From Octopus sinensis (taxonomy: Eukaryota), in NCBI RefSeq assembly GCF_006345805.1, contig NW_021834321.1:1-53669 (forward strand): DNA of 53,669 nt, given 5' to 3'. A model generated the notes under the pieces. That model did not search any database and was not told where the DNA came from. It worked only from the letters and a program-made list of their open reading frames with translations. Each line of letters begins with the position of its first letter. Positions within the stretch are counted from its first letter, which is position 1. Of the stretch, positions 1,341 to 46,192 are shown piece after piece. A program made the translations under genes and the position numbers.

Positions 1341-1342
1341 AT

Positions 1343-1580
1343 ATACTTGCATAGCAAGTGACCTGATCTGAGATCGTGTGCTGAAACAAAAGTAATTGTA
1401 GCGTGGAAGGTGTTTATAAGTCATTTGACAATATCTCCGAGATGCAGCATGGAATTTTGTCAATGAACAGGTTGCGGTCTCAAAGCGGTGAAAATATTTT
1501 GACAAAATATTTGAATGGTGAAGTGAATCTAACGGTTTTTGTGTGTTTCTCAAATGGCTTATAAACACCTTCCAAGCTGC

Positions 1581-1584
<4 letters not shown>
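1343..1584. mobile_element. Inverted partial copies of the ~205-nt HHR-bearing element
   Basis: 1343-1427 is the reverse complement of the unit's 3' part (cf. 26625-26713); 1439-1584 is a forward copy. Confidence 0.7.
1455..1507 (+). ncRNA. Degenerate third copy of the variant hammerhead (A3-C8 mismatch)
   Basis: ttttgtca-ATGAACA-g-gttgc-ggtctcaaa-gcggt-GAAA-atat-TT-tgacaaaa; flanks homologous to 26519-26662. Confidence 0.6.
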
Positions 1585-3684: not shown

Positions 3685-4452
3685 TCTTTTCTTCTCTAGG
3701 CAGAAGGCACGACATTTTGGGGTGGAGGCCAGTCGATTACATCGACCCCGGTACGCAACGGCTGCTTAATTTATCGACCACGAAAGGATGAAAGGCAAAG
3801 TCGACCTCGGTGGAATTTGAACTCAGAACGTAAAGACAGACGAAATACCTATTTCTTTATTACCCACAAGGGGTTAAACACAGAGGGGACAAACAAGGAC
3901 AGACAAACTGATTAAGTCGAATATATTGACCCCAGTGCGAGACTGGTACTTATTTAATCGACCCCGAAAGGACGAGAGGCAAAGTCGACCTCGGCGGAAT
4001 TTGAACTCAGAACGTAAGACAGACGAAATACCTATTTCTTTACTACCCACAAGGGGTTAAACACAGAGGGGACAAACAAGGACAGACAAACGGATTAAGT
4101 CGATTAGATCGACTCCAGTACGTAACTGGTACTTAATTTATCGACTCCGAAAAGGATGAAAGGTAAAATCGACCTCGGCGGAATTTGAACTCAGAACGTA
4201 GCGGCGGACGAAATACCTATTTCTTTACTACCCACAAGGGGCTAAACATAGAGGGAACAAACAAGGACAGACAAATGGATTTAGTCGATTATATTGACCC
4301 CAGTGCGTAACTGGTACTTAATTTATCGACCCCGAAAGGATGAAAGGCAAAGTCGACCTTGGTGGAATTTGAACTCAGAACGTAACGGCAGATGAAATAC
4401 AGCTTCGCATTTCGCCCGGTGTGCTAACGTTTCTGCCAGCTCGCTGCCTTAC
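3685..4452 (-). mobile_element. SINE family B multimer with ~184-bp internal tandem units
   Basis: Anchor gaaatacctatttcttt at ~3842, 4025 and 4210; single head at 4452, single tail at 3685. Confidence 0.9.
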
Positions 4453-5157: not shown

Positions 5158-5482
5158 TATATGTTTAAAATATTTTTGTCAGAAGATGAAGTGCAAGCCC
5201 TCTGATCCAACTCGGGACTCTAATTCTGGTGTAATGACATTATCTTCAACCTGAATACGTCGCATAAATGCTTAGAAAAGAACGAAGTCCACGTGAAGGC
5301 ACTTGATCTGCAGGTGTTAAACCGAGAAGCAGGTTACATCTAGCAAGCAAATGACAATGATAAAGATCCAAAAGAGTATCGAAGCGAATAGAAACATAAA
5401 ATCACTTCGGTGGTCACAATGAATTAGGGTCTAAAGAGGTGAATCATAAGCGAAATTCAGTGCGCTACAAATGAACGTACAT

Positions 5483-5877
5483 AAAAAATTTCTAATGCCA
5501 AATATGCCGAAATTGAACATATTGTCCATAACCATATAATTTTTCACAATACGCACGCTACTCGAACAAAAGCCGACAGAAATTTCTAAAAAATTCCATC
5601 ATTACCATATCGGACCGATTTCAGGGTTAGTTCGTAAGAAGTGTTTTGCTTCTTTCATGGGTATGAGTAAGTATCGCATTTATTTCTTTGCCACATTTAT
5701 CACTGACGAAGGGAGGGTTCTTACGAACTAACCCTGGAATCGGTCCGATGTCGTAATAATGGAATTTTTTTAGAAATTTCTGTCAGCTTTTTTTCGAGTA
5801 GCGTGCGTATTGTGAAATATTATATGGTTATGGACGATATGTTCAATTTCGGCATATTTGGCATTAGAAGTTTTTTT
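5483..5877. repeat. Inverted repeat, ~158-bp arms, HHR-associated (Penelope-like pLTR remnant)
   Basis: 5483-5640 is the reverse complement of 5718-5877; HHR starts in the loop. Confidence 0.85.
5697..5757 (+). ncRNA. Degenerate type I hammerhead
   Basis: ttatca-CTGACGA-aggg...ccct-GGAA-tcggtccga-TG. The mirror arm (5602-5640, minus) keeps the intact 3' half ccct-GAAA-tcggtccga-TA-tggtaa, which pairs with ttatca. Confidence 0.6.
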
Positions 5878-5985
5878 GTTTGCTCTTGTTTATGAGTTGT
5901 TTATAATTTTAACCTTTGAAGGTATTTTTTTAATATGCTGGGCATTGGAATAAAAATTTTTTTCCCAAAAATGTTTATCGTATAT

Positions 5986-6030
<45 letters not shown>

Positions 6031-6263
6031 TATATATATACATAACATTTGGAGAGCCAGCCAATTTTGAATAATCTCAATTGTTAGAGGCCGAAACTGT
6101 AATGATAATTTGGAAACTTGACTGATGAAGACAAGGCATGAATGATCTGTCCTTGTTTTTTCTTGTCCGTCTTTGTATCGTCTATCTAACCGTATTTTTT
6201 GTCGTCTGTTACGTTCTACTTCTATTTTTAAGAATTATAAATCTATCTATCTATTTATCTATC

Positions 6264-10391: not shown

Positions 10392-11365
10392 GGTGGGGTG
10401 GCTGGTGGTGGTGGTGGTTGTTGTTATATGTTGCTTGTTGTTGCTGTGGCGGTGGTGGTGGTAGGTGTTGGTGACGGTTGTTGTTTTGGTGGAGGTGATG
10501 GTGCTTGTGGAGGTGGTGGTGGTGGTTGTTGTGGTGGTGGTGATAGTGATGGTGGTGTTGGTTGTTGTTGCTGTGGCGGTGGTGGTGGTAGGTGTTGGTG
10601 ACGGTTGTTGTTTTGGTGGAGGTGATGGTGCTTGTGGAGGTGGTGGTGGTGGTGGTGATAGTGATGGTGGTGTTGGTTGTTGTTGCTGTGGCGGTGGTAT
10701 GGTGGCGGTAGTGGCGGCGTTGGTTGTTATGGTGGCTGTGGTGGGGCCGATGGTAGGGGCGATGATGGTGGTGGTGGTGGTGGTGGAGATGGTGGTGGTG
10801 GTTGTTGTGATTGTGATGGTGCTTGTGGTGATGGTGGTGGTGGTTGTTGTGATTGTGATGGTGCTTGTGGTGATGGTGGTGGTGGTTGTTATGTGTTGGT
10901 TGTTGTTGCTGTGGCGGTGGTGTATGGTGGTGGTGGTGGTAGTGTTAGTGGTGGCGCTGGTTGTTGTTGTGGTGACTGTAGTGGGGCCGATGGTAGGGGC
11001 GATGATGGCGGTGGTCGTTGTAATGTTAGTTGTGGTAGTGGGCGGTGATGGCTGGAAGTGACGGTGGAGAGGGAGAGTGGAAGTGATGGTGGTGGTGGTG
11101 GTATGGTGCTGGTGGGGATGGTAGTGGTGGTGATGGTGATGATGATTGTGGTAGAGGTTGTGGTCTCATAGTGATGGTAGTGGCGACGAAGTTGATGATG
11201 TTAGTGTTGGTGTTGTTGTTGGTGATGGTTGCTGTTAATGTGGTGATAGGGGTCCTCTTCGTTGTCGTGATGGCGGTGGTAGTCTTGGAGGTGGTGGTGG
11301 TGGTTGTGATTCTGGTGATGGTGGTAATGGTGGTGGTGGTGGTAGTGGTGGTGATGGTATGGTAT
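10392..11365 (+). repeat. (GGT/GTT/GAT)n cryptic trinucleotide tract with higher-order repeats
   Basis: Block gttgctgtggcggtggtggt...ggtgcttgtggagg at ~10440 and ~10567. Confidence 0.9.
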
Positions 11366-11368
11366 GGT

Positions 11369-11603
11369 TAAGGCGGTGAGCTGGCAAAACCGTTAGCAGG
11401 CCGGGCGAAATGCTTAGCGGTATTTCGTCTGCCGTTACGTTCTGAGTTCAAATTCCGCCGAGGTCGACTTTGCCTTTCATCCTTTCGGGGTCGATGAATT
11501 AAGTACCAGTTACGTACTGGAGTCGATGTAATCGACTTAATACCTATGTCTGTCCTTGTTTGTCCCCTCTGTGTTTAGCCCCTTGCGGGTAATAAAGAAA
11601 TAC
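11369..11603 (+). mobile_element. SINE family B
   Basis: aaggcggtgagctggca...gagttcaaattcc (B box)...gcctttcatcctttcggggtcgat. Confidence 0.9.
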
Positions 11604-12061
11604 GTATGGTATGGTTATGGTAATAACTTAAACTATGTAGAATTATGTATAAACGTTTCTGAAACTCTTTAGGTGAAGAATATTTCTCTCTTCAATTGAA
11701 ATAAATGGAATTATAAACGTTCTCCTGTCTTGCGGCCTCTCGCACAGTAAATAACCCTCTTTTTTTGTTTTGTTAGTTTTATGTTGTTCTGCTCATTATG
11801 TCCGTCTGTGTGTTTATAACTGTCATTTTGTATATGTTTGTATGTATAGGTATTTATAAACACACACATATATAAATATACATACATAGACACACACATA
11901 CAAACATGTATATATACATATACGTATACAAATATATATGAGTGTATATATATTTATATATATATACATATATAGACACATATATGTGCACACATATATG
12001 TATATACATGTATACATGGATACATATGTGTACAAAGAGGAAGGGAACACACACACACATA

Positions 12062-13943: not shown

Positions 13944-15117
13944 TGTATACACTTTTTTTATCCGAGGGGAGGCAATGCGAGCAACAACCACAGGAACATC
14001 ACAAAATCCACAGATAGACCAAACACATACAAATCTTCATATACTCATTTATATCTATAAAGCCCGACATTTAGAAATTTAGTAATATATAAATATATCA
14101 TATAAAAATATAAATTTTGCATATAACACCTTGAATTAACGCTTAAAACATTTAGTATAAATTTGTTACAATAAGAGAAATAAATATAATAATAATAAAT
14201 AAAAATAAAGCATACAAAAGCATATTAAAAGACGAATTAAAATTCTAGCGAAATGTACATAGAAGGTAATAATTATACAAATTTACAAGAATATAAGTTT
14301 ACAAAGATACACAGAAGTCCATCTTCGGGCCGTTTCGGAGACGCGCCAATTAATATTAGACATATCATATACTTAAAATTGGCACTCCCTTCAAGGACTT
14401 GAACCCGAATATGTGGCTTTGCATGTATGTGAGAATTTATAAGATTGAAATAAAATAAAATAGAACAAAATAAGTACAGAATTGAAATGGTCCAGATGGC
14501 GCTGTGTGCATACAATTTACTATGGCTGATGGATCGAATTATATGCGTATAATATAGCATTCAGGATCGGAGAAAAAATTCTGGGAGTACGTAATGTCTC
14601 GGTTCTGAATATGGCCGGTATGTGATTGTGTATTTGTTCACGTTTGTTATGTGTTGTATGTATAGGACATCCTGATGAGGAGAGTGTCAATTTTAAGTAT
14701 ATGATATGTCTAATATTAATTGGCGCGTCTCCGAAACGGCCCGTAGATGAACTTCTGTGTATCTTTGTAAACTTATATTTTTGTAAACTTATATAATTAT
14801 TATCTTCTCTATACATTTCGCTAGAATTTTAATTCGTCTTTTAATATGCCTTCGTATGCTTTATTTTTATTTATTATTATTATATTTATTTCTCTTATTG
14901 TAACAAATTTATACTAAATGATTTAAGCGTATATGCAAGGTGTTATACGCATAATTTATATTTTTATATGATATATTTATATATTACTAAATTTTTAAAT
15001 GTTGGGCTTTATAGATATAAATGAGTATATGAAGATTTGTATGTGGTTGGTCTACCTGTGGATTTTGTGATGTTCCTGTGGTTCGCATTGCCTTCCCTCG
15101 GATAAAAAGTATATACA
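13944..15117. repeat. Long inverted repeat, ~440-bp arms, HHR-associated (Penelope-like pLTR remnant)
   Basis: 13944-14389 is the reverse complement of 14680-15117 with scattered mismatches; HHR at the inner end of the right arm. Confidence 0.9.
14668..14749 (+). ncRNA. Type I hammerhead ribozyme, canonical core
   Basis: catc-CTGATGA-ggagagtgtcaatt...aattggcgcgtctcc-GAAA-cggcccg-TA-gatg; ~14-bp helix II; predicted cleavage after A14745 (GUA). Confidence 0.85.
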
Positions 15118-22817: not shown

Positions 22818-24325
22818 TAAGTTTAGATATTTGATGAAGACGAAGAGAAGCAGCGTCAAAGTAAATCGTTGCAATTTCGAATGAAGATCAGGGAAGATGC
22901 AAGGCCTTAGGTTTAAGGGGAGAATGAAAATGTTTGTTGAAGCGAAAAGACAAATGTAGTTATTTTAACTTTTGGAATGAAAAAAGAATATCTGTATGTT
23001 TTGATCAAAATTTATGTTAGAAAATTCCGCCAAGCAAAATGCTCAGTGGAATTTAGCCTGTCTTATATATTCTGCCGCCGAGGTGGACTTTTATCCCTCT
23101 GAGGTGAATGAAATGGTTCATTGATTTAGCTCAGGGGTTCCCAACCGGGTTCCACAGAAGCTTTAAGGAGGTCCACGAGTAAAAAATTGTAATTTGTGGG
23201 TCCATATATAAATTTTGCTTACTAGGAGGGGTACCTGTGTTTATTGAAATTTTCAAGATTTGTATTTGGAAATTATGGGATGTTTTCAATCTGACCGACA
23301 GATTTTTTAATTAATTTTTTTAACTAAACACTTTGAAACTCGGATACTGGTAGAATGTGTCACATAGAACAGGGTTTATTCTTAATGTTTTTGACAAAAT
23401 TTTGTTTTAGAAAGTATTTCGTGTTAAATTTGTCGTATTTGGGTAATTTTAACTAATCAATGACGTGTATTCAGCTGAAGAAAATTACTGCTGCTGTTTG
23501 CGAACAACTTCCGGGTTCACTCCCCTAACGAAACCCTTTTTTAATAACCAGAGATGTTTTTTTTTATAGCAACATAGGTTTGCTGTATCAGGGTTGATTC
23601 GAGGCTAAATAACAAAATTATTACTAAGACAGACCAACGACGGAGCCTCTATGTGGTTGCATGACCTGCTAGAAAAAGTAGCCAAACTTTTTTATATACA
23701 GTATAGAAAAACTTCTATATACACGTAGAGTCCATTATGTCTGGGTAGAAAGACAGAATGGTCACAGTTGGGACGTCTTTGATCATATCTGTTCAATCAG
23801 ATCCAACTCGGAGATAAACAACGAATGACGAAGGGAACGAGACAAGGCAACGGGAGAGCCTTTACGGGAATCGAACTCACAACCTCATGATTATGAGCCC
23901 GTGGCACTAAGCACTGAGCCATAAACCTCAGACTATCTACCCGTACATCGACGCCGCTGTGGGCGTTAGAGTTATAAAATTGCCAAATGTTACGTAAGCT
24001 TGTGATATTAGTTCGACGGTGTCCTCTTGTGGTTTCGGAATCGGTGACAGAACGACTCCTGTTTCAGTTATATTATTTCACGATTCGATAAACATGAGTG
24101 GATATTAAAGACTCGAGAAAGTATCCAAGTTATTGAGATAATGTGTTGACTTCTTCGGATAATATAGCCTGTTTTTTCCCCCACTTCTATATAAGCAGAA
24201 GTTCAGATTTGGCGGCAAAATTGCTGTAGCTTTGAGTCGAAACCGTATCACCTCGATGGCGAGAAAGGGACTTATTACTTGCTCTTCAGGGCTGGTCATA
24301 TTTGTGGCAGAATATTGTTGGACAT

Positions 24326-24760
24326 TAAGGCGGCGAGCTGGCAGAAACGTTAGCACGCCGGGCGAAATGCTTAGCAGTATTTCGTCAGTTTTTGCGTTCT
24401 GAGTTCAAATTCCACCGTGGTCGACTTTGCTTTTCATCCTTTCGAGGTCGACAAATTAAGCACCAGTTACGCATTGGGGTCGATGTAATCGACTTAATCC
24501 CTTTGTCTGTCCTTGTTTGTCCCCTCTGTGTTTAGCCCCTTGTGGGCAATAAAGAAATAAGGAACGTTAGCACACCGGGCGAAATGCTTAGCAGTATTTC
24601 GTCTGTCTTTACGTTCTGAGTTCAAATTCCGCCGAGGTCGACTTTGCCTTTCATCCTTTCGGAGCCGATAAATTAAGTACCAGTTGCATACTGAGGTCGA
24701 TGTAATCGGCTTGCCGCCTCCCCAAAAATTTCGGACCTTGTGCCTAGAGCAGGAAAGAAT
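24326..24760 (+). mobile_element. SINE family B dimer
   Basis: Two bodies; the second restarts at aacgttagcac (~24563). Confidence 0.9.
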
Positions 24761-25557: not shown

Positions 25558-26180
25558 TGGCTGGCAGAAACGTTAGCACGCCGAGGGAAATGCTTAGCGG
25601 TATTTCGTCTAGCGTTACGTTCTGAGTTCAAATTCCGCCGAGGTCGACTTTGCCTTTCATCCTTTCGGGGTCGATAAATTAAGTACCAGTTACGCACTGG
25701 AGTCGATCTAATCGACTTAATCCGTTTGTCTATCCTTGTTTGTCCACTCTGTGTTTAGCCCCTTGTGAGTAGTAAAGAAATAGGTATTCCGTCTGTCTTT
25801 ATGCTCTGAGTTCAAATTCCGAGGTTTACTTTGCCTTTCATCCTTTCGGGGTCGATAAATTAAATATCAGTTGTGTACGGTGGTCGATCTAATCGGCTTG
25901 CCTCCTACCCCCAAATTTGTGTCTATAGTAGAAAGGATTATTATTATTATTATTATTACTACTAAGCCTCGAGCGGGCAAAATCGTTAGCGAGCAGGGTA
26001 AATTACTTAGCCGTATTTTGTCTGCCACTTTGTTCTGAGTTCAAATTCCGCTGGGGGTCGACTTTGCCTTTCATCCTTTCGGGGCCAGTAAATTAAATAC
26101 CAGTGAAACAGTGGGGTAGAGTATTAGATTAGTCCCCTCCCCTAAAAAATGGCTGCCCTTGTGGCAATATTTGAAACCAT
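25558..26180 (+). mobile_element. SINE family B dimer plus monomer
   Basis: Three gagttcaaattccg B-box units. Confidence 0.85.
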
Positions 26181-26311
26181 TATTATCATTACTGCATAAT
26201 GCCCGTCTGCTCCCGCTGGAAGCGATGTTTGTTGGTAACATTGTTGTTACTTTATAAGCCATTTAAGAAACACACAAAAGCCGTTCGATTCACTTCAACA
26301 TTTAAATTTAA

Positions 26312-26362
26312 TTTGTCAAAATATTTTCGTCGCTTTGAGACCGCGACCTGTTCACTGACAAA
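26312..26362 (-). ncRNA. Minimal type I hammerhead ribozyme with variant core (G3:C8, extra G after A9)
   Basis: Minus strand reads tttgtca-GTGAACA-g-gtcgc-ggtctcaaa-gcgac-GAAA-atat-TT-tgacaaa: 7-bp helix I, perfect 5-bp helix II, palindromic helix III. Confidence 0.75.
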
Positions 26363-26478
26363 GCTTCGTGCTGCATCAGATGCAGCACGCAGCACGAAGC
26401 TTTGTCAGTGAACAATATTTGTCAGTGTGTTTATATGGGTGAGTACGTGTTAATTATTCCAAGCAAGTATGTATATAC

Positions 26479-26516
<38 letters not shown>

Positions 26517-26533
26517 GAGATGCAGCACGAAGC

Positions 26534-26584
26534 TTTGTCAGTGAACAGGTTGCGGTCTCAAAGTGACGAAAATATTTTGACAAA
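26534..26584 (+). ncRNA. Second copy of the G3:C8 variant hammerhead
   Basis: tttgtca-GTGAACA-g-gttgc-ggtctcaaa-gtgac-GAAA-atat-TT-tgacaaa; helix II changes become G-U pairs. Confidence 0.72.
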
Positions 26585-27014
26585 TTAAACTTAAATGTTG
26601 AAGTGAATCGAACGGTTTTGTGTGTTTCTTAAATGGCTTATAAACACCTTCCACACTGCAATTGTTTTCGTTCCAGCACACGATCTCAGATCAAGTCACT
26701 CGCTATGCAAGTACATCTCCGTAATTGTTGTTACTGCTGCTGTTAAACTTTTATTTTTCTTATCTTAGTTGTAAGATTTTGTAAGACATATTTGTTGTTG
26801 TAACATTTGTAAGACACAGAGAGAGAGAGAGAGAGAGACGGGGGGAGAGAGAAACTATCCCCTGATAGAAACAACATAGTGAGATCACTGTTAAAAGAAG
26901 TCTTCTCTGCTCCCATTGTAAATCGTGTCTTGTAAATACTTTACTGGACGACATGCGGATGGTATAACTTCCGGTATTTTTCAGACTCCATCCACTTTCA
27001 CACTCAACCCCTTT

Positions 27015-33457: not shown

Positions 33458-33735
33458 CATATTCTGTTGTTTCTGGGGAGAGTCATTTTCTTTTTGTGCC
33501 TTATAATGTAACACACTCACCGGTAAAATTTCCACTTATTTCATCTTTTCATTTTCCTAAAATTTTCGTTGCATCTTGCAACCTTTTCAAGTGTCAAGAC
33601 TATTGCAAAGGTTGCAAGACGCAACGAAAATTTTAGGAAAATAAAAATAAGGAATAAGTGGAAATTTTACCGGTGAGTGTGTTACATTATAAGGCACAAA
33701 AAGAAAATGACTCTCCCCAGAAACAACAGAATATG
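33458..33735. repeat. Foldback hairpin, 133-bp arms, 12-nt loop
   Basis: 33458-33590 is the reverse complement of 33603-33735. Confidence 0.92.
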
Positions 33736-33748
33736 CTTCAATACTCTT

Positions 33749-33858: not shown

Positions 33859-34186
33859 GAGAGAGAGAGAGATGTGTGTGTGTGTGTTTAAGTATGTATG
33901 TGCGTATGTATGCATGTATCGGATGCGCGTGAAGCCATGTAAGCGTTGATATGTGTGTTCGATTCCAACGCGTTCAGCTGATTATTTTTCAGTCATTTTA
34001 GATTATGTCACTTTAAACGGAGCATATATATTATTATAATACATTATTATAGTTATTATTGTATAAGAAACATTTTGGTTGCTTTTCTCCGTAACTTATC
34101 AAGTCTTCGGTTTTGTTTACAAAATTATATATACATATATATTCGTTTTGCAAGATTTTTGATGTGAATTAGTGTATTGAAACAGA

Positions 34187-34858
34187 TAGTGTTGTATTTA
34201 GGAATGGTCATGTTGCCAGTTTAGCCAATGAAAACACACGCACTATATATTTAATGTTTATTTGTTTCAGCTTTATTTTATATAAATCGTATTTCGGCCA
34301 AAGTTCTTTCGTCATACTTCTCTGACCTCATCAGTGGTCCTTTGCTTTCTTCTTCCTTTTTTGTATCTCTCTTTCCTAACAATCTGCCATTTTGTATTTG
34401 TGCTGTATGTCTCTTTATTTGCGCATGCGTATATCCCTGTGTGTGTCTATGTTTAGTATGGTACCTGCTTTATCAGTATCCCCTGTTTCTTCACGTTCGT
34501 TTAATTTACTTTTATTTATTTTATTATTCATTGTTTTTATCTACGTACTTTTCATTTCTTTCTTTTTTTATTAATTTAATTTAATCTATTTTGTATATCC
34601 GTGTAATTATTTAATTCCATTTATTTATCTGTCTATTGTATCTGCCTATCTAATACAATACACAGATAAATAAATGGAATTAAATGATTATATACATAAA
34701 CAAAATATGATTAAATTAAATTAATGCAAAAAGAGAACTCTGGCCGAAATACAATTAATATAAAATAAAGGCGGAGCAAGTGAACACAAAATATATAGTG
34801 TGTGTGTGTGTTTCATTGGCTAAACTGGCAACATGACCGTCCTCAAATACAACAAATA
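34187..34858. repeat. Nested inverted repeats with HHR
   Basis: Outer arms ~34187-34306 and ~34735-34858; inner hairpin ~34561-34641 and ~34653-34734. Confidence 0.8.
34296..34340 (-). ncRNA. Minimal type I hammerhead ribozyme
   Basis: Minus strand: ggacca-CTGATGA-g-gtca-gagaagta-tgac-GAAA-gaac-TT-tggcc; extra G after A9; helix III very short and not fully palindromic. Confidence 0.65.
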
Positions 34859-44974: not shown

Positions 44975-45595
44975 AATCCTTTCTAAAAAAGGCACAAGGC
45001 CTGAAATTTTGCGGGAGGTGTTAACTCGATTGCTCAGACCCCAGTGTCACACTGGTACTTAATTTATCGTCCCCGAAAGGAGGGGAGGCAAAGTCGACTT
45101 TGGCGGAATTTGAACTCAGAACGTCAAGAAATGCCGCTAAGTATTTTTGTCGCTAATGCCGCTAACGATTCTTTCAGCTCACCGACTTAATGATAATCCA
45201 TTATGCTATAAGCACAAGGCCTATGACTTGGAAGAAGGGGACAGTCGATTACATCGGACGCAGTGCGTAACTGGTACTTATTTTATCGACCCCGAAATGA
45301 CGAAAAGCAACGTTGACCTCGGAGGAATTTGAACTCAGAATGTAGCGATATGCGAAATACCTATTTCTTTACTACCCACAAGGAGCTAAACACAGAGGGG
45401 ACAAACAAGGACAGACACACGGATTAAGTCGAATATATCGACCCCAGTGCGTAACTGGTACTTATTTAATCGACCCCGAAAGGATGAAAGACAAAGTCGA
45501 TCTCGGCAGGATTTGAACTTAGAACGTAGCGGCAGACGAAATACCGCTAAGCATTTCGCCCGGCGCGCTAACGTTTATTCCAGCTCGCCTCCTAA
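44975..45595 (-). mobile_element. SINE family B monomer plus dimer
   Basis: Three atttgaact(c/t)agaa units. Confidence 0.87.
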
Positions 45596-46192
45596 ATAAT
45601 AATAATAATAATATTAATAATAATAACGGTTTAAAAATCTAGATCATATTCTTCAATTTTAGGAGTGGAGATTAATCGATTTCGTGTATTCTGTAGAAGA
45701 CTGGTATTAGATTTTATCTACCTGCGAAGTGAAAAAAGACGATATTGAACAAGAAGTGAAGCTGAATTATGGAATGATGATGATGATGACGAGGAGGAGG
45801 AGGAGGACGACGATGATGATGATGATGATGGTGATGGTAACTGTAATGGCAGTTTCACATTTAGGTAGTAAGCCAGTGAAAATTAACGAGAGTTAAACCG
45901 ATATGATTGATGTTAATGTGTTAACGTTTTGTCTAGTGTTTTAACCCATATCAATGAAATGGTAAAAGAATATTTACGAGCACATATACATACATTCATA
46001 CATACATACATACATGTATTTATATATATATAAACTTTTGCTTTTTTCCACAATTTAACATATTTTTCATACTTTACTCTAAGTTGAAAAAGTCGCAATG
46101 ACTGAAACCGGTACTAAACTGTTCTTCATGATGAACTTATTTTAGCATTTTCTACCTTGTCTTATTGTCTTTACATACACACACACACACAT

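What the first reader, a model, noticed from the sequence alone, without database searches (positions are those of the whole stretch)
26251..26720. ~205-nt mobile unit carrying a hammerhead with a swapped G3:C8 core
Seen: two mirror copies read GUGAACA instead of CUGANGA, followed by an extra G, a 5-bp helix II, GAAA, palindromic AUAU, UU and a 7-bp helix I. A third, decayed copy is at 1455-1507. The forward unit (26516-26720) is bounded by GGAGATG/CATCTCC. Established: positions 3 and 8 form a Watson-Crick pair in the active hammerhead, compensatory swaps can retain activity, and an extra base between A9 and 10.1 is tolerated in some natural HHRs. Inference: this is an HHR-bearing non-autonomous element (Penelope pLTR or retrozyme-like) that standard CUGANGA descriptors would miss, so it may be undescribed.
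Basis: partly seen in the sequence, partly recalled or inferred. Interest (0 to 1): 0.8.

Follow-up and report, generated by a model that had tools for sequence, protein, structure and literature searches.

The report
Swapped-core hammerhead in Penelope retrotransposon repeat
The 205-base unit is the short end repeat of a protein-coding Penelope-like jumping gene, and it carries a hammerhead-ribozyme motif whose key core pair is naturally flipped (G-C instead of C-G), while two sister families in the same genome use C-G and U-A, which likely means the fold is kept by selection, though cutting is untested.

Summary
The motif is real and family-wide: 3,639 genome matches carry C8, 96 of 100 listed with G3. 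The unit is not an independent non-autonomous element. It is the truncated pseudo-LTR of an autonomous Penelope-like retrotransposon (RT, linker zinc finger, C-terminal GIY-YIG; Neptune/Nematis type) whose ORF starts inside the unit (window 26633; full copy L062). Copies show Penelope hallmarks: head-to-head inversions, an optional ~55-nt tail, 9-13-bp target duplications; 26251-26723 is one insertion inside an 11-bp duplication. Two sister families, both also in this window, carry the hammerhead at the same place before their ORFs with C3:G8 and U3:A8, and their helices also change on both sides. Against strict function: about 4% of copies read G3-G8, most sister-B copies lack A9, and only 1 of 72 arms starts at the cut site. 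I found natural U3:A8 and engineered G3:C8 in print, but no natural G3:C8 (Lünse 2017 unreadable); the scan noted one G3-C8 case in another genome. Cleavage is untested. Verdict: new variant of a known kind.

The parts
26240..26250 (+). left copy of 11-bp target-site duplication ATTGTTGTTAC
   Evidence: sequence
26251..26377 (-). inverted, tail-less pLTR arm (unit positions 4-129)
   Evidence: BLAST 96.9%
26312..26362 (-). hammerhead motif, mirror copy; G3 at 26355, C8 at 26350; fully paired helix II
   Evidence: z -2.5
26378..26414 (+). short forward restart of the pLTR (about unit positions 3-13 then 7-32), forming the fold-back junction
26415..26515 (.). about 100-nt filler ending in (TA)n inside the insertion; origin unknown
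   Evidence: sequence
26516..26723 (+). forward pLTR arm with tail (the '205-nt unit' plus GTA); truncated end repeat of the autonomous element
   Evidence: 91% over 210 nt to the 5' pLTR of full element L062
26534..26584 (+). type I minimal hammerhead motif: helix I 26534-26540/26578-26584, core GUGAACA 26541-26547, extra G 26548, helix II 26549-26553/26563-26567, GAAA 26568-26571, palindromic AAUAUU, predicted cut between 26577 and 26578
   Evidence: cut site inferred from hammerhead numbering
26633..26725 (+). first 31 codons of the element's ORF (MAYKHLP...)
   Evidence: same start as the 608-aa frame in L062 and the 597-aa frame in L107
26666..26723 (+). optional ~55-nt tail between the two alternative 3' ends
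   Evidence: arm ends cluster at unit 145-160 (28 of 72) and 205-218 (35 of 72)
26724..26734 (+). right copy of the target-site duplication (its first bases ATT also match the element)
   Evidence: sequence
1341..1426 (-). older copy: inverted tailed arm (unit 116-201)
   Evidence: BLAST 88%
1439..1584 (+). older copy: tail-less arm with decayed hammerhead (A3, broken helix II)
   Evidence: BLAST 87%
34126..34455 (-). pLTR of sister family B with canonical C3:G8 core (CUGAUGA G, C3 at 34334)
   Evidence: 81% to L135
33458..33741 (.). head-to-head pLTR pair of sister family C with U3:A8 core (UUGAAAA G, U3 at 33590, minus strand)
   Evidence: 87% to L191

Best explanation
The unit is a truncated pseudo-LTR of an autonomous Penelope-like retrotransposon, and it carries a minimal type I hammerhead motif with a natural G3:C8 core pair that likely self-cleaves slowly, probably as a dimer or with help from the element's protein. 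Shown: the unit is the end repeat of a ~5-kb element whose ORF (RT, CX3CX2C linker, C-terminal GIY-YIG) begins 92 nt after core position 3; copies have two alternative 3' ends, inverted arms and target duplications; sister families keep the 3:8 pair as C:G and U:A. Inferred from the anole element PAc: the endonuclease nicks AT-rich DNA, the RT starts at two internal sites in the ORF's first ~90 nt (giving tailed and tail-less arms) and copies back to the RNA's likely 5' end just upstream of the hammerhead, so most products are short dead stubs. Inferred: the palindrome AAUAUU forms helix III between two copies, and the cut falls after U17. Odds by step: pLTR identity ~0.97; hammerhead fold under selection in the founding elements ~0.85; measurable cleavage ~0.55.
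For: Recurrent read-through past the tail in 7 of 100 listed 3' ends (28 junction matches genome-wide). Full element in L062: duplicated pLTRs, 608-aa and 475-aa frames split by one frameshift; a 5'-truncated copy with one open frame of 1,042 codons, ~1,010 of them the element's (L136); RT and EN motifs located. Of 45 independent loci on contig C1, 26 are inverted pairs, 21 with one tailed and one tail-less arm; 12 show a 9-13-bp duplication against 15 of 1,980 shuffled flank pairs. Families A (this), B and C form one clade, 100/100, A sister to B+C. Commonest 3:8 pair: G:C 94 of 110, C:G 16 of 16, U:A 17 of 19; helix pairs 2.3, 2.2, 10.3, 10.4 and 15.2 also change on both sides, and none of 11 pair positions has a broken commonest pair. 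PAc: tail equals two RT start sites, C3G/G8C partly restores cleavage, cleavage needs protein (PMC11167929). Extra base after A9 and palindromic helix III are typical of PLE hammerheads (PMC4209133).
Against: No cleavage assay. 151 matches have G8 against 3,639 with C8, 99 of 100 listed with G3, including the pLTR of full-length copy L107, so an unpaired G3-G8 form exists and has been multiplied. In family B about 80 of 100 listed copies have C instead of the conserved A9, so a core defect did not stop amplification. The extra base is G, whereas the published PLE consensus is H (1 of the representatives read has G). Only 1 of 72 arms starts at the cut site. In a 125-nt context the forward copy does not fold as a hammerhead, and AAUAUU alone duplexes at only -0.2 kcal/mol. 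Only three families, so two independent 3:8 swaps; the structural alignment was set by my own patterns. PAc insertion in vitro did not need cleavage.
Confidence: 0.8

Rival explanations
1. Same pLTR origin, but the G3:C8 motif is catalytically dead or negligible and is kept only as a folded signal (protein binding, RT start, promoter or splice context), or not kept at all any more.
For: G3-G8 minority of ~4%; C9 majority in family B; no excess of arms starting at the cut site; PAc hammerhead mutants insert normally in vitro; G8C lowers rate 10^5-fold and C3G rescues only partly (PMC8495972 passage).
Against: Both changes at 3 and 8 between families are compensatory, and this pair is known from the active conformation; U4, G5, A6, GAAA, G10.1-C11.1 and A15.1-U16.1 are the commonest letters in all three families while flanks diverge.
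Confidence: 0.3
2. The ~205-nt unit replicates on its own as a non-autonomous retrozyme through hammerhead-cut circular RNA.
For: Thousands of short copies against 28 ORF-junction matches; head-to-tail arrays of ~170-nt hammerhead units exist (8 in L097, 4 in L082); animal retrozymes are proposed to derive from pLTRs (bioRxiv 10.64898/2026.07.22.740005).
Against: Dispersed copies begin near unit positions -2 to 9 (38 of 72 arms) and end at the two tail sites, not at the cut site, and show no circular permutation; 7 of 72 arms extend into the upstream UTR of the full element; the unit holds the ORF start. Array units include (TA)n target and share junctions, as for later DNA-level duplication.
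Confidence: 0.07
3. The unit is a MITE-like DNA element with GGAGATG/CATCTCC termini, and the hammerhead look is chance.
For: The 7-bp inverted match exists in the window copy, and GAGATG/CATCTC in many copies.
Against: Outer G in 2 of 23 solo copies; variable 5' truncation, two 3' ends, inverted arms; link to an RT-GIY-YIG ORF; three-family covariation.
Confidence: 0.01

Closest known systems
Minimal type I hammerheads in pLTRs of metazoan Penelope-like elements (Cervera and De la Peña 2014, PMC4209133; read: main text parts 1-2 of 4, supplement file 2 parts 1-2 of 3; file 1 not searchable)
   Same: Position in the pLTR, extra base between 9 and 10.1, G10.1-C11.1, short palindromic helix III, mostly solo truncated copies, natural swap at 3:8 (U3-A8 in Schistosoma).
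   Different: G3:C8 is in none of the Fig. S3 representatives I read (all C3 or U3); extra base is G, not H; helix I is 7 bp; three pair types occur in sister families of one genome.
PAc, Poseidon element of Anolis carolinensis (Frangieh et al. 2024, PMC11167929; read: parts 1-2 of 4)
   Same: pLTR overlaps the ORF start; optional tail; ATT target; hammerhead near the start codon; G3:C8 tested there as an engineered double mutant with partial rescue.
   Different: Here G3:C8 is the wild type; the ORF starts 92 nt after position 3 rather than at helix II; tail ~55 nt rather than 30-40; linker zinc finger present.
Neptune/Nematis EN+ Penelope-like elements (as defined in Craig et al. 2021, PMC8557442; read: passages)
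   Same: C-terminal GIY-YIG with CCHH, CX2-5CxxC linker, partial tandems, inverted 5' copies, (TA)n targets.
   Different: Only the hammerhead core; clade not fixed by a tree with named references.
Natural U3-A8 hammerheads (Perreault et al. 2011, PMC3088659; read: passages and part 3 of 8)
   Same: Compensatory change of the 3:8 core pair in nature.
   Different: Only U3-A8 is reported in what I read; G3:C8 needs two transversions.
Non-LTR retrozymes of animals (PMC7229834, search listing only; bioRxiv 10.64898/2026.07.22.740005, part 1 of 5 and passages)
   Same: Type I hammerhead in 150-200-nt tandem units; a few arrays of this family look like this.
   Different: Most copies here are dispersed inverted stubs with the ORF start and tail, not tandem monomers.

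Membership tests
EN+ Penelope-like element | Single ORF with RT and C-terminal GIY-YIG endonuclease carrying CCHH | tested here: met
   DVVSLYPS, GGAIG, RYVDD, YQIKC-x4-C-x6-YIGET, HAVDCH in the open frame of L136, located by my own motif patterns. Pfam, NCBIfam and PDB gave no relevant hit; 56 unnamed homologues.
EN+ Penelope-like element | pLTRs flanking the ORF as partial tandem | tested here: met
   L062 1055-1689 versus 5392-6050, 94%
EN+ Penelope-like element | Inverted 5'-truncated copy and optional tail | tested here: met
   26 of 45 independent loci inverted, 21 with one tailed and one tail-less arm
Neptune/Nematis clades | CX2-5CxxC linker before the endonuclease | tested here: met
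   CQSNCAVC at residue 882; criterion from PMC8557442
Neptune clade specifically | RT phylogeny with named Neptune references | not tested
   Tree held only unnamed homologues; reading LRKDHK as Neptune-like is recalled
PLE minimal hammerhead | Core U4 G5 A6, A9, G12 A13 A14, A15.1-U16.1, H17 | tested here: met
   Commonest letters in family A alignments; sample partly selected on these letters
PLE minimal hammerhead | Watson-Crick pair at 3:8 | tested here: met
   G:C 94 of 110; sisters C:G and U:A; ~4% G-G minority
PLE minimal hammerhead | Literal consensus CUGANGAH | tested here: not met
   GUGAACAG: swapped pair and G as extra base; hence filed as a variant
PLE minimal hammerhead | Helices I and II, palindromic helix III | tested here: met
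   Folds; two-sided changes between families; AAUAUU is self-complementary
Hammerhead ribozyme | Site-specific self-cleavage after position 17 | not testable with these tools
   Needs an assay; 1 of 72 arms starts at the site
Non-LTR retrozyme | Head-to-tail arrays of hammerhead monomers as the main form | tested here: not met
   Arrays at a few loci only; window copies are inverted stubs
Non-LTR retrozyme | Circular RNA monomers | not testable with these tools
   Only contigs were available
MITE | Fixed terminal inverted repeats | tested here: not met

The most novel reading that the evidence does not exclude
This is an undescribed natural G3:C8 hammerhead that cleaves. Three sister retrotransposon families in one genome have fixed three different Watson-Crick pairs at the catalytic 3:8 position, so the active-site geometry is under selection in Penelope-like elements, and the swap works as a natural rate dial on a ribozyme whose job is still unknown. 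CUGANGA-based surveys would have missed a whole class of such ribozymes.
Probability: 0.4. Interest if true: 0.65.

Novelty: new variant of a known kind. Interest (0 to 1): 0.45.

Why it matters
Why Penelope-like elements keep hammerheads is open: the one element reconstituted in vitro inserts without cleavage. A pair that belongs to the active fold has been swapped compensatorily twice among sister families, which argues that the active fold matters in vivo. The three families, plus natural G3-G8 and C9 sub-lineages, are a ready-made panel for comparing cleavage rate with copy number. In practice, hammerhead descriptors should allow any Watson-Crick pair at 3:8. The element class, the ribozyme type and tolerance of the swap are all known, which caps the interest.

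Tried and rejected
Rfam at gathering threshold: 0 matches in the window. Shared-flank search in the first 60 loci and 100 listed 3' ends found no ORF link; the link came from the next pattern. Pfam gave only a weak, sub-threshold TAN match; NCBIfam and PDB nothing. Metagenome scan: 2 related RT fragments on 1.4-1.9-kb contigs, used only in the tree, so no outgroup hammerhead and no direct polarity for the swap. Sequencing runs: no RNA holder listed on record. Contigs of 6 of 21 runs were laid; no GT..AG joint into the putative acceptor was listed, but repeats cut the contigs, so splicing is neither shown nor excluded. In one search no other letter reached 10% at the core in four runs of four coded organisms, though one loose-end consensus in X20 reads T at position 8; not pursued. 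Within-family conservation: core 2.8%, GAAA 3.2%, spacer 4.7%, tail 4.2% departures; biased by pattern selection and expected to be near neutral, so not used. Copy counts are inflated by one insertion multiplied with its flanks (23 of 70 C1 loci); those and 2 duplicate loci were dropped before the 45-locus counts. Origin of the extra G before AGATG (17 of 23 solo copies): cap-templated base, fold-back at CTCAG and splicing were considered and not resolved. Literature: 9 searches answered found no natural G3:C8; Lünse 2017 and Przybilski and Hammann 2007 are not held, Repbase/Dfam could not be searched, and supplement file 1 of PMC4209133 was not searchable.

Full report
Observation. The window lies in a 2.7-Gb, microsatellite-rich genome. 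The motif is as described: forward copy with G3 at 26541, mirror copy with G3 at 26355, decayed copy near 1455-1507. Both intact copies fold helix II exactly and pair helix I; z-scores are -2.5 (mirror), -3.7 (full-element copy) and -0.4 (forward copy, two wobble pairs at CpG sites). Rfam finds nothing in the window. A 30-letter pattern with positions 3, 7, 8 and the extra base left free has 1,902 matches, control 0; 90 of 100 listed read G3 with C8. A looser pattern gives 3,639 matches with C8 and 151 with G8. These are match counts, not insertions: inverted pairs count twice, and 23 of 70 loci examined on contig C1 are one insertion multiplied with its flanks.

What the unit is. In 45 independent loci (72 arms), 3' ends fall at unit positions 145-160 (28) or 205-218 (35); 26 loci are head-to-head inversions, 21 of them pairing a tailed with a tail-less arm; 12 show a 9-13-bp AT-rich duplication against 15 of 1,980 shuffled pairs. 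In the window the 11-bp duplication ATTGTTGTTAC encloses 26251-26723, so the two mirror copies are one insertion. These are the marks of Penelope-like insertions (PMC8557442 passages). Listing the bases after the tail showed one recurring continuation in 7 of 100 matches (28 genome-wide). Eight such loci were fetched, and L062 (G000:C2:32070500-32078500) holds a full element: pLTR, an ORF starting at the ATG that corresponds to window 26633, 608 aa plus 475 aa across one frameshift, a ~1-kb UTR and a second pLTR, 94% identical to the first. L136 has the frame open from about residue 60 to the stop. [quoted passage not shown] Family libraries gave no usable hit. So the unit is a pLTR stub that includes the ORF start. 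The GGAGATG/CATCTCC ends are not family termini.

The decisive comparison. Searching the genome with the ORF's first 240 residues found sister families at roughly 30-40% identity. Their ORFs start with homologous sequences, and each has a hammerhead motif 92-135 nt upstream. Family B reads CUGAUG(A/C) G GUCACA..UGUGAC GAAA GAAC UC (3,579 matches; 96 of 100 listed C3, all G8). Family C reads UUGAAAA G GUUGC..GCAAC GAAA AU UU (2,498 matches; U3:A8 in 17 of 19 fetched copies). Both also occur in this window (34334 and 33590, minus strand). A tree of 35 RT-region rows puts A, B and C in one clade (100/100) with A sister to B+C (outgroups unnamed and without DNA context, 22 of 56 homologues used). 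Across the three families six pair positions change on both sides (3:8 twice; 2.3-1.3, 2.2-1.2, 10.3-11.3, 10.4-11.4, 15.2-16.2) and no commonest pair is broken. As a rough inference, seven two-sided changes would all stay Watson-Crick by chance about (1/3)^7 of the time; the alignment was fitted by my patterns and only three families enter, so this is support, not a p-value. C3:G8 as ancestor follows from its prevalence in print, not from a tested outgroup.

How it likely works. Shown: anatomy, link to the ORF, two 3' ends, inversions, duplications, covariation. From PAc (PMC11167929): the protein nicks AT-rich DNA at ATT and starts reverse transcription at two internal sites that bracket the tail; its hammerhead cleaves only with protein, and C3G/G8C partly rescues. 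Inferred here: the same two-site start, with copying that usually ends near unit positions -2 to 9 (38 of 72 arms; 7 run further upstream). That boundary sits right after ACTAAC, a pyrimidine tract and YAG in full elements, which reads as either an initiator or a splice acceptor; solo copies carry a G not found in the full element in 17 of 23 cases. Cap-templated G, fold-back and splicing were not told apart. Helix III would form between two RNAs through AAUAUU, weakly.

Evidence against function. About 4% of family A matches are G3-G8, including one full-length copy's pLTR and a cluster on contig C20. About 80 of 100 listed family B copies have C at 9. The extra base is G against a published H. 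One of 72 arms starts at the cut site. The longer forward context misfolds. PAc needs no cleavage in vitro. No run on record as RNA was listed, so expression is open.

Comparison and novelty. Minimal PLE hammerheads with an extra base, palindromic helix III and natural U3-A8 are known (PMC4209133; PMC3088659). G3:C8 appears in what I read only as an engineered change (PMC11167929; PMC8495972 passage; PMC3884650 passage). Nine answered searches found no natural case, but the most relevant survey (Lünse 2017) could not be read and repeat databases were not searchable. The scan's own notes list one G3-C8 motif beside a Penelope-like RT in another genome and similar leader-only stubs elsewhere (unchecked); none for this sequence or genome. 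Verdict: a new variant of a known kind, interest 0.45. The value lies in a natural G3:C8 family with phylogenetic covariation and a testable panel, not in a new kind of element.

Noticed in passing
window 34126-34455 (-); family-wide: Sister family B (3,579 matches) has C in place of the conserved A9 in about 80 of 100 listed copies and A in about 18; the window copy has A9. A natural A9C sub-lineage that out-amplified the canonical one.
   Followed up: partly
window 33458-33741: Sister family C head-to-head pair with U3:A8 core, 3-bp helix I in the family and AAUU palindrome; 2,498 matches.
   Followed up: yes
L097 (G000:C30:11167557-11170790), L082, L104, L105: Head-to-tail arrays of ~170-200-nt G3:C8 hammerhead units with (TA)n spacers (8 in L097), retrozyme-like; best place to look for circular RNA.
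   Followed up: partly
L031 and 22 other C1 loci: One inverted-pair insertion multiplied with flanks mostly 93-100% identical, so it rides in another repeat; carrier not identified.
   Followed up: partly
G000:C20:2.0-7.0 Mb: Cluster of about 20 G3-G8 copies, most with the same loop variant; local amplification of an unpaired-core form.
   Followed up: no
L062 5885-5905; L107: Branch-point-like ACTAAC, pyrimidine tract and YAG directly before the usual 5' end of the stubs; resembles the D. virilis Penelope intron ending next to helix I (PMC4209133).
   Followed up: partly
window 13986-14393 and 14676-15083: 408-nt inverted repeat, 94% complementary, 282 nt apart; possibly another fold-back insertion.
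   Followed up: no
window 3700-4450, 11363-11607, 24324-24760, 25560-26150, 45000-45600: Many copies of one ~180-260-nt interspersed repeat, often in short tandems; SINE-like by recall.
   Followed up: no
L066, L068, L107, L023: Fragments of other RT-GIY-YIG Penelope-like families lie near family A insertions.
   Followed up: no
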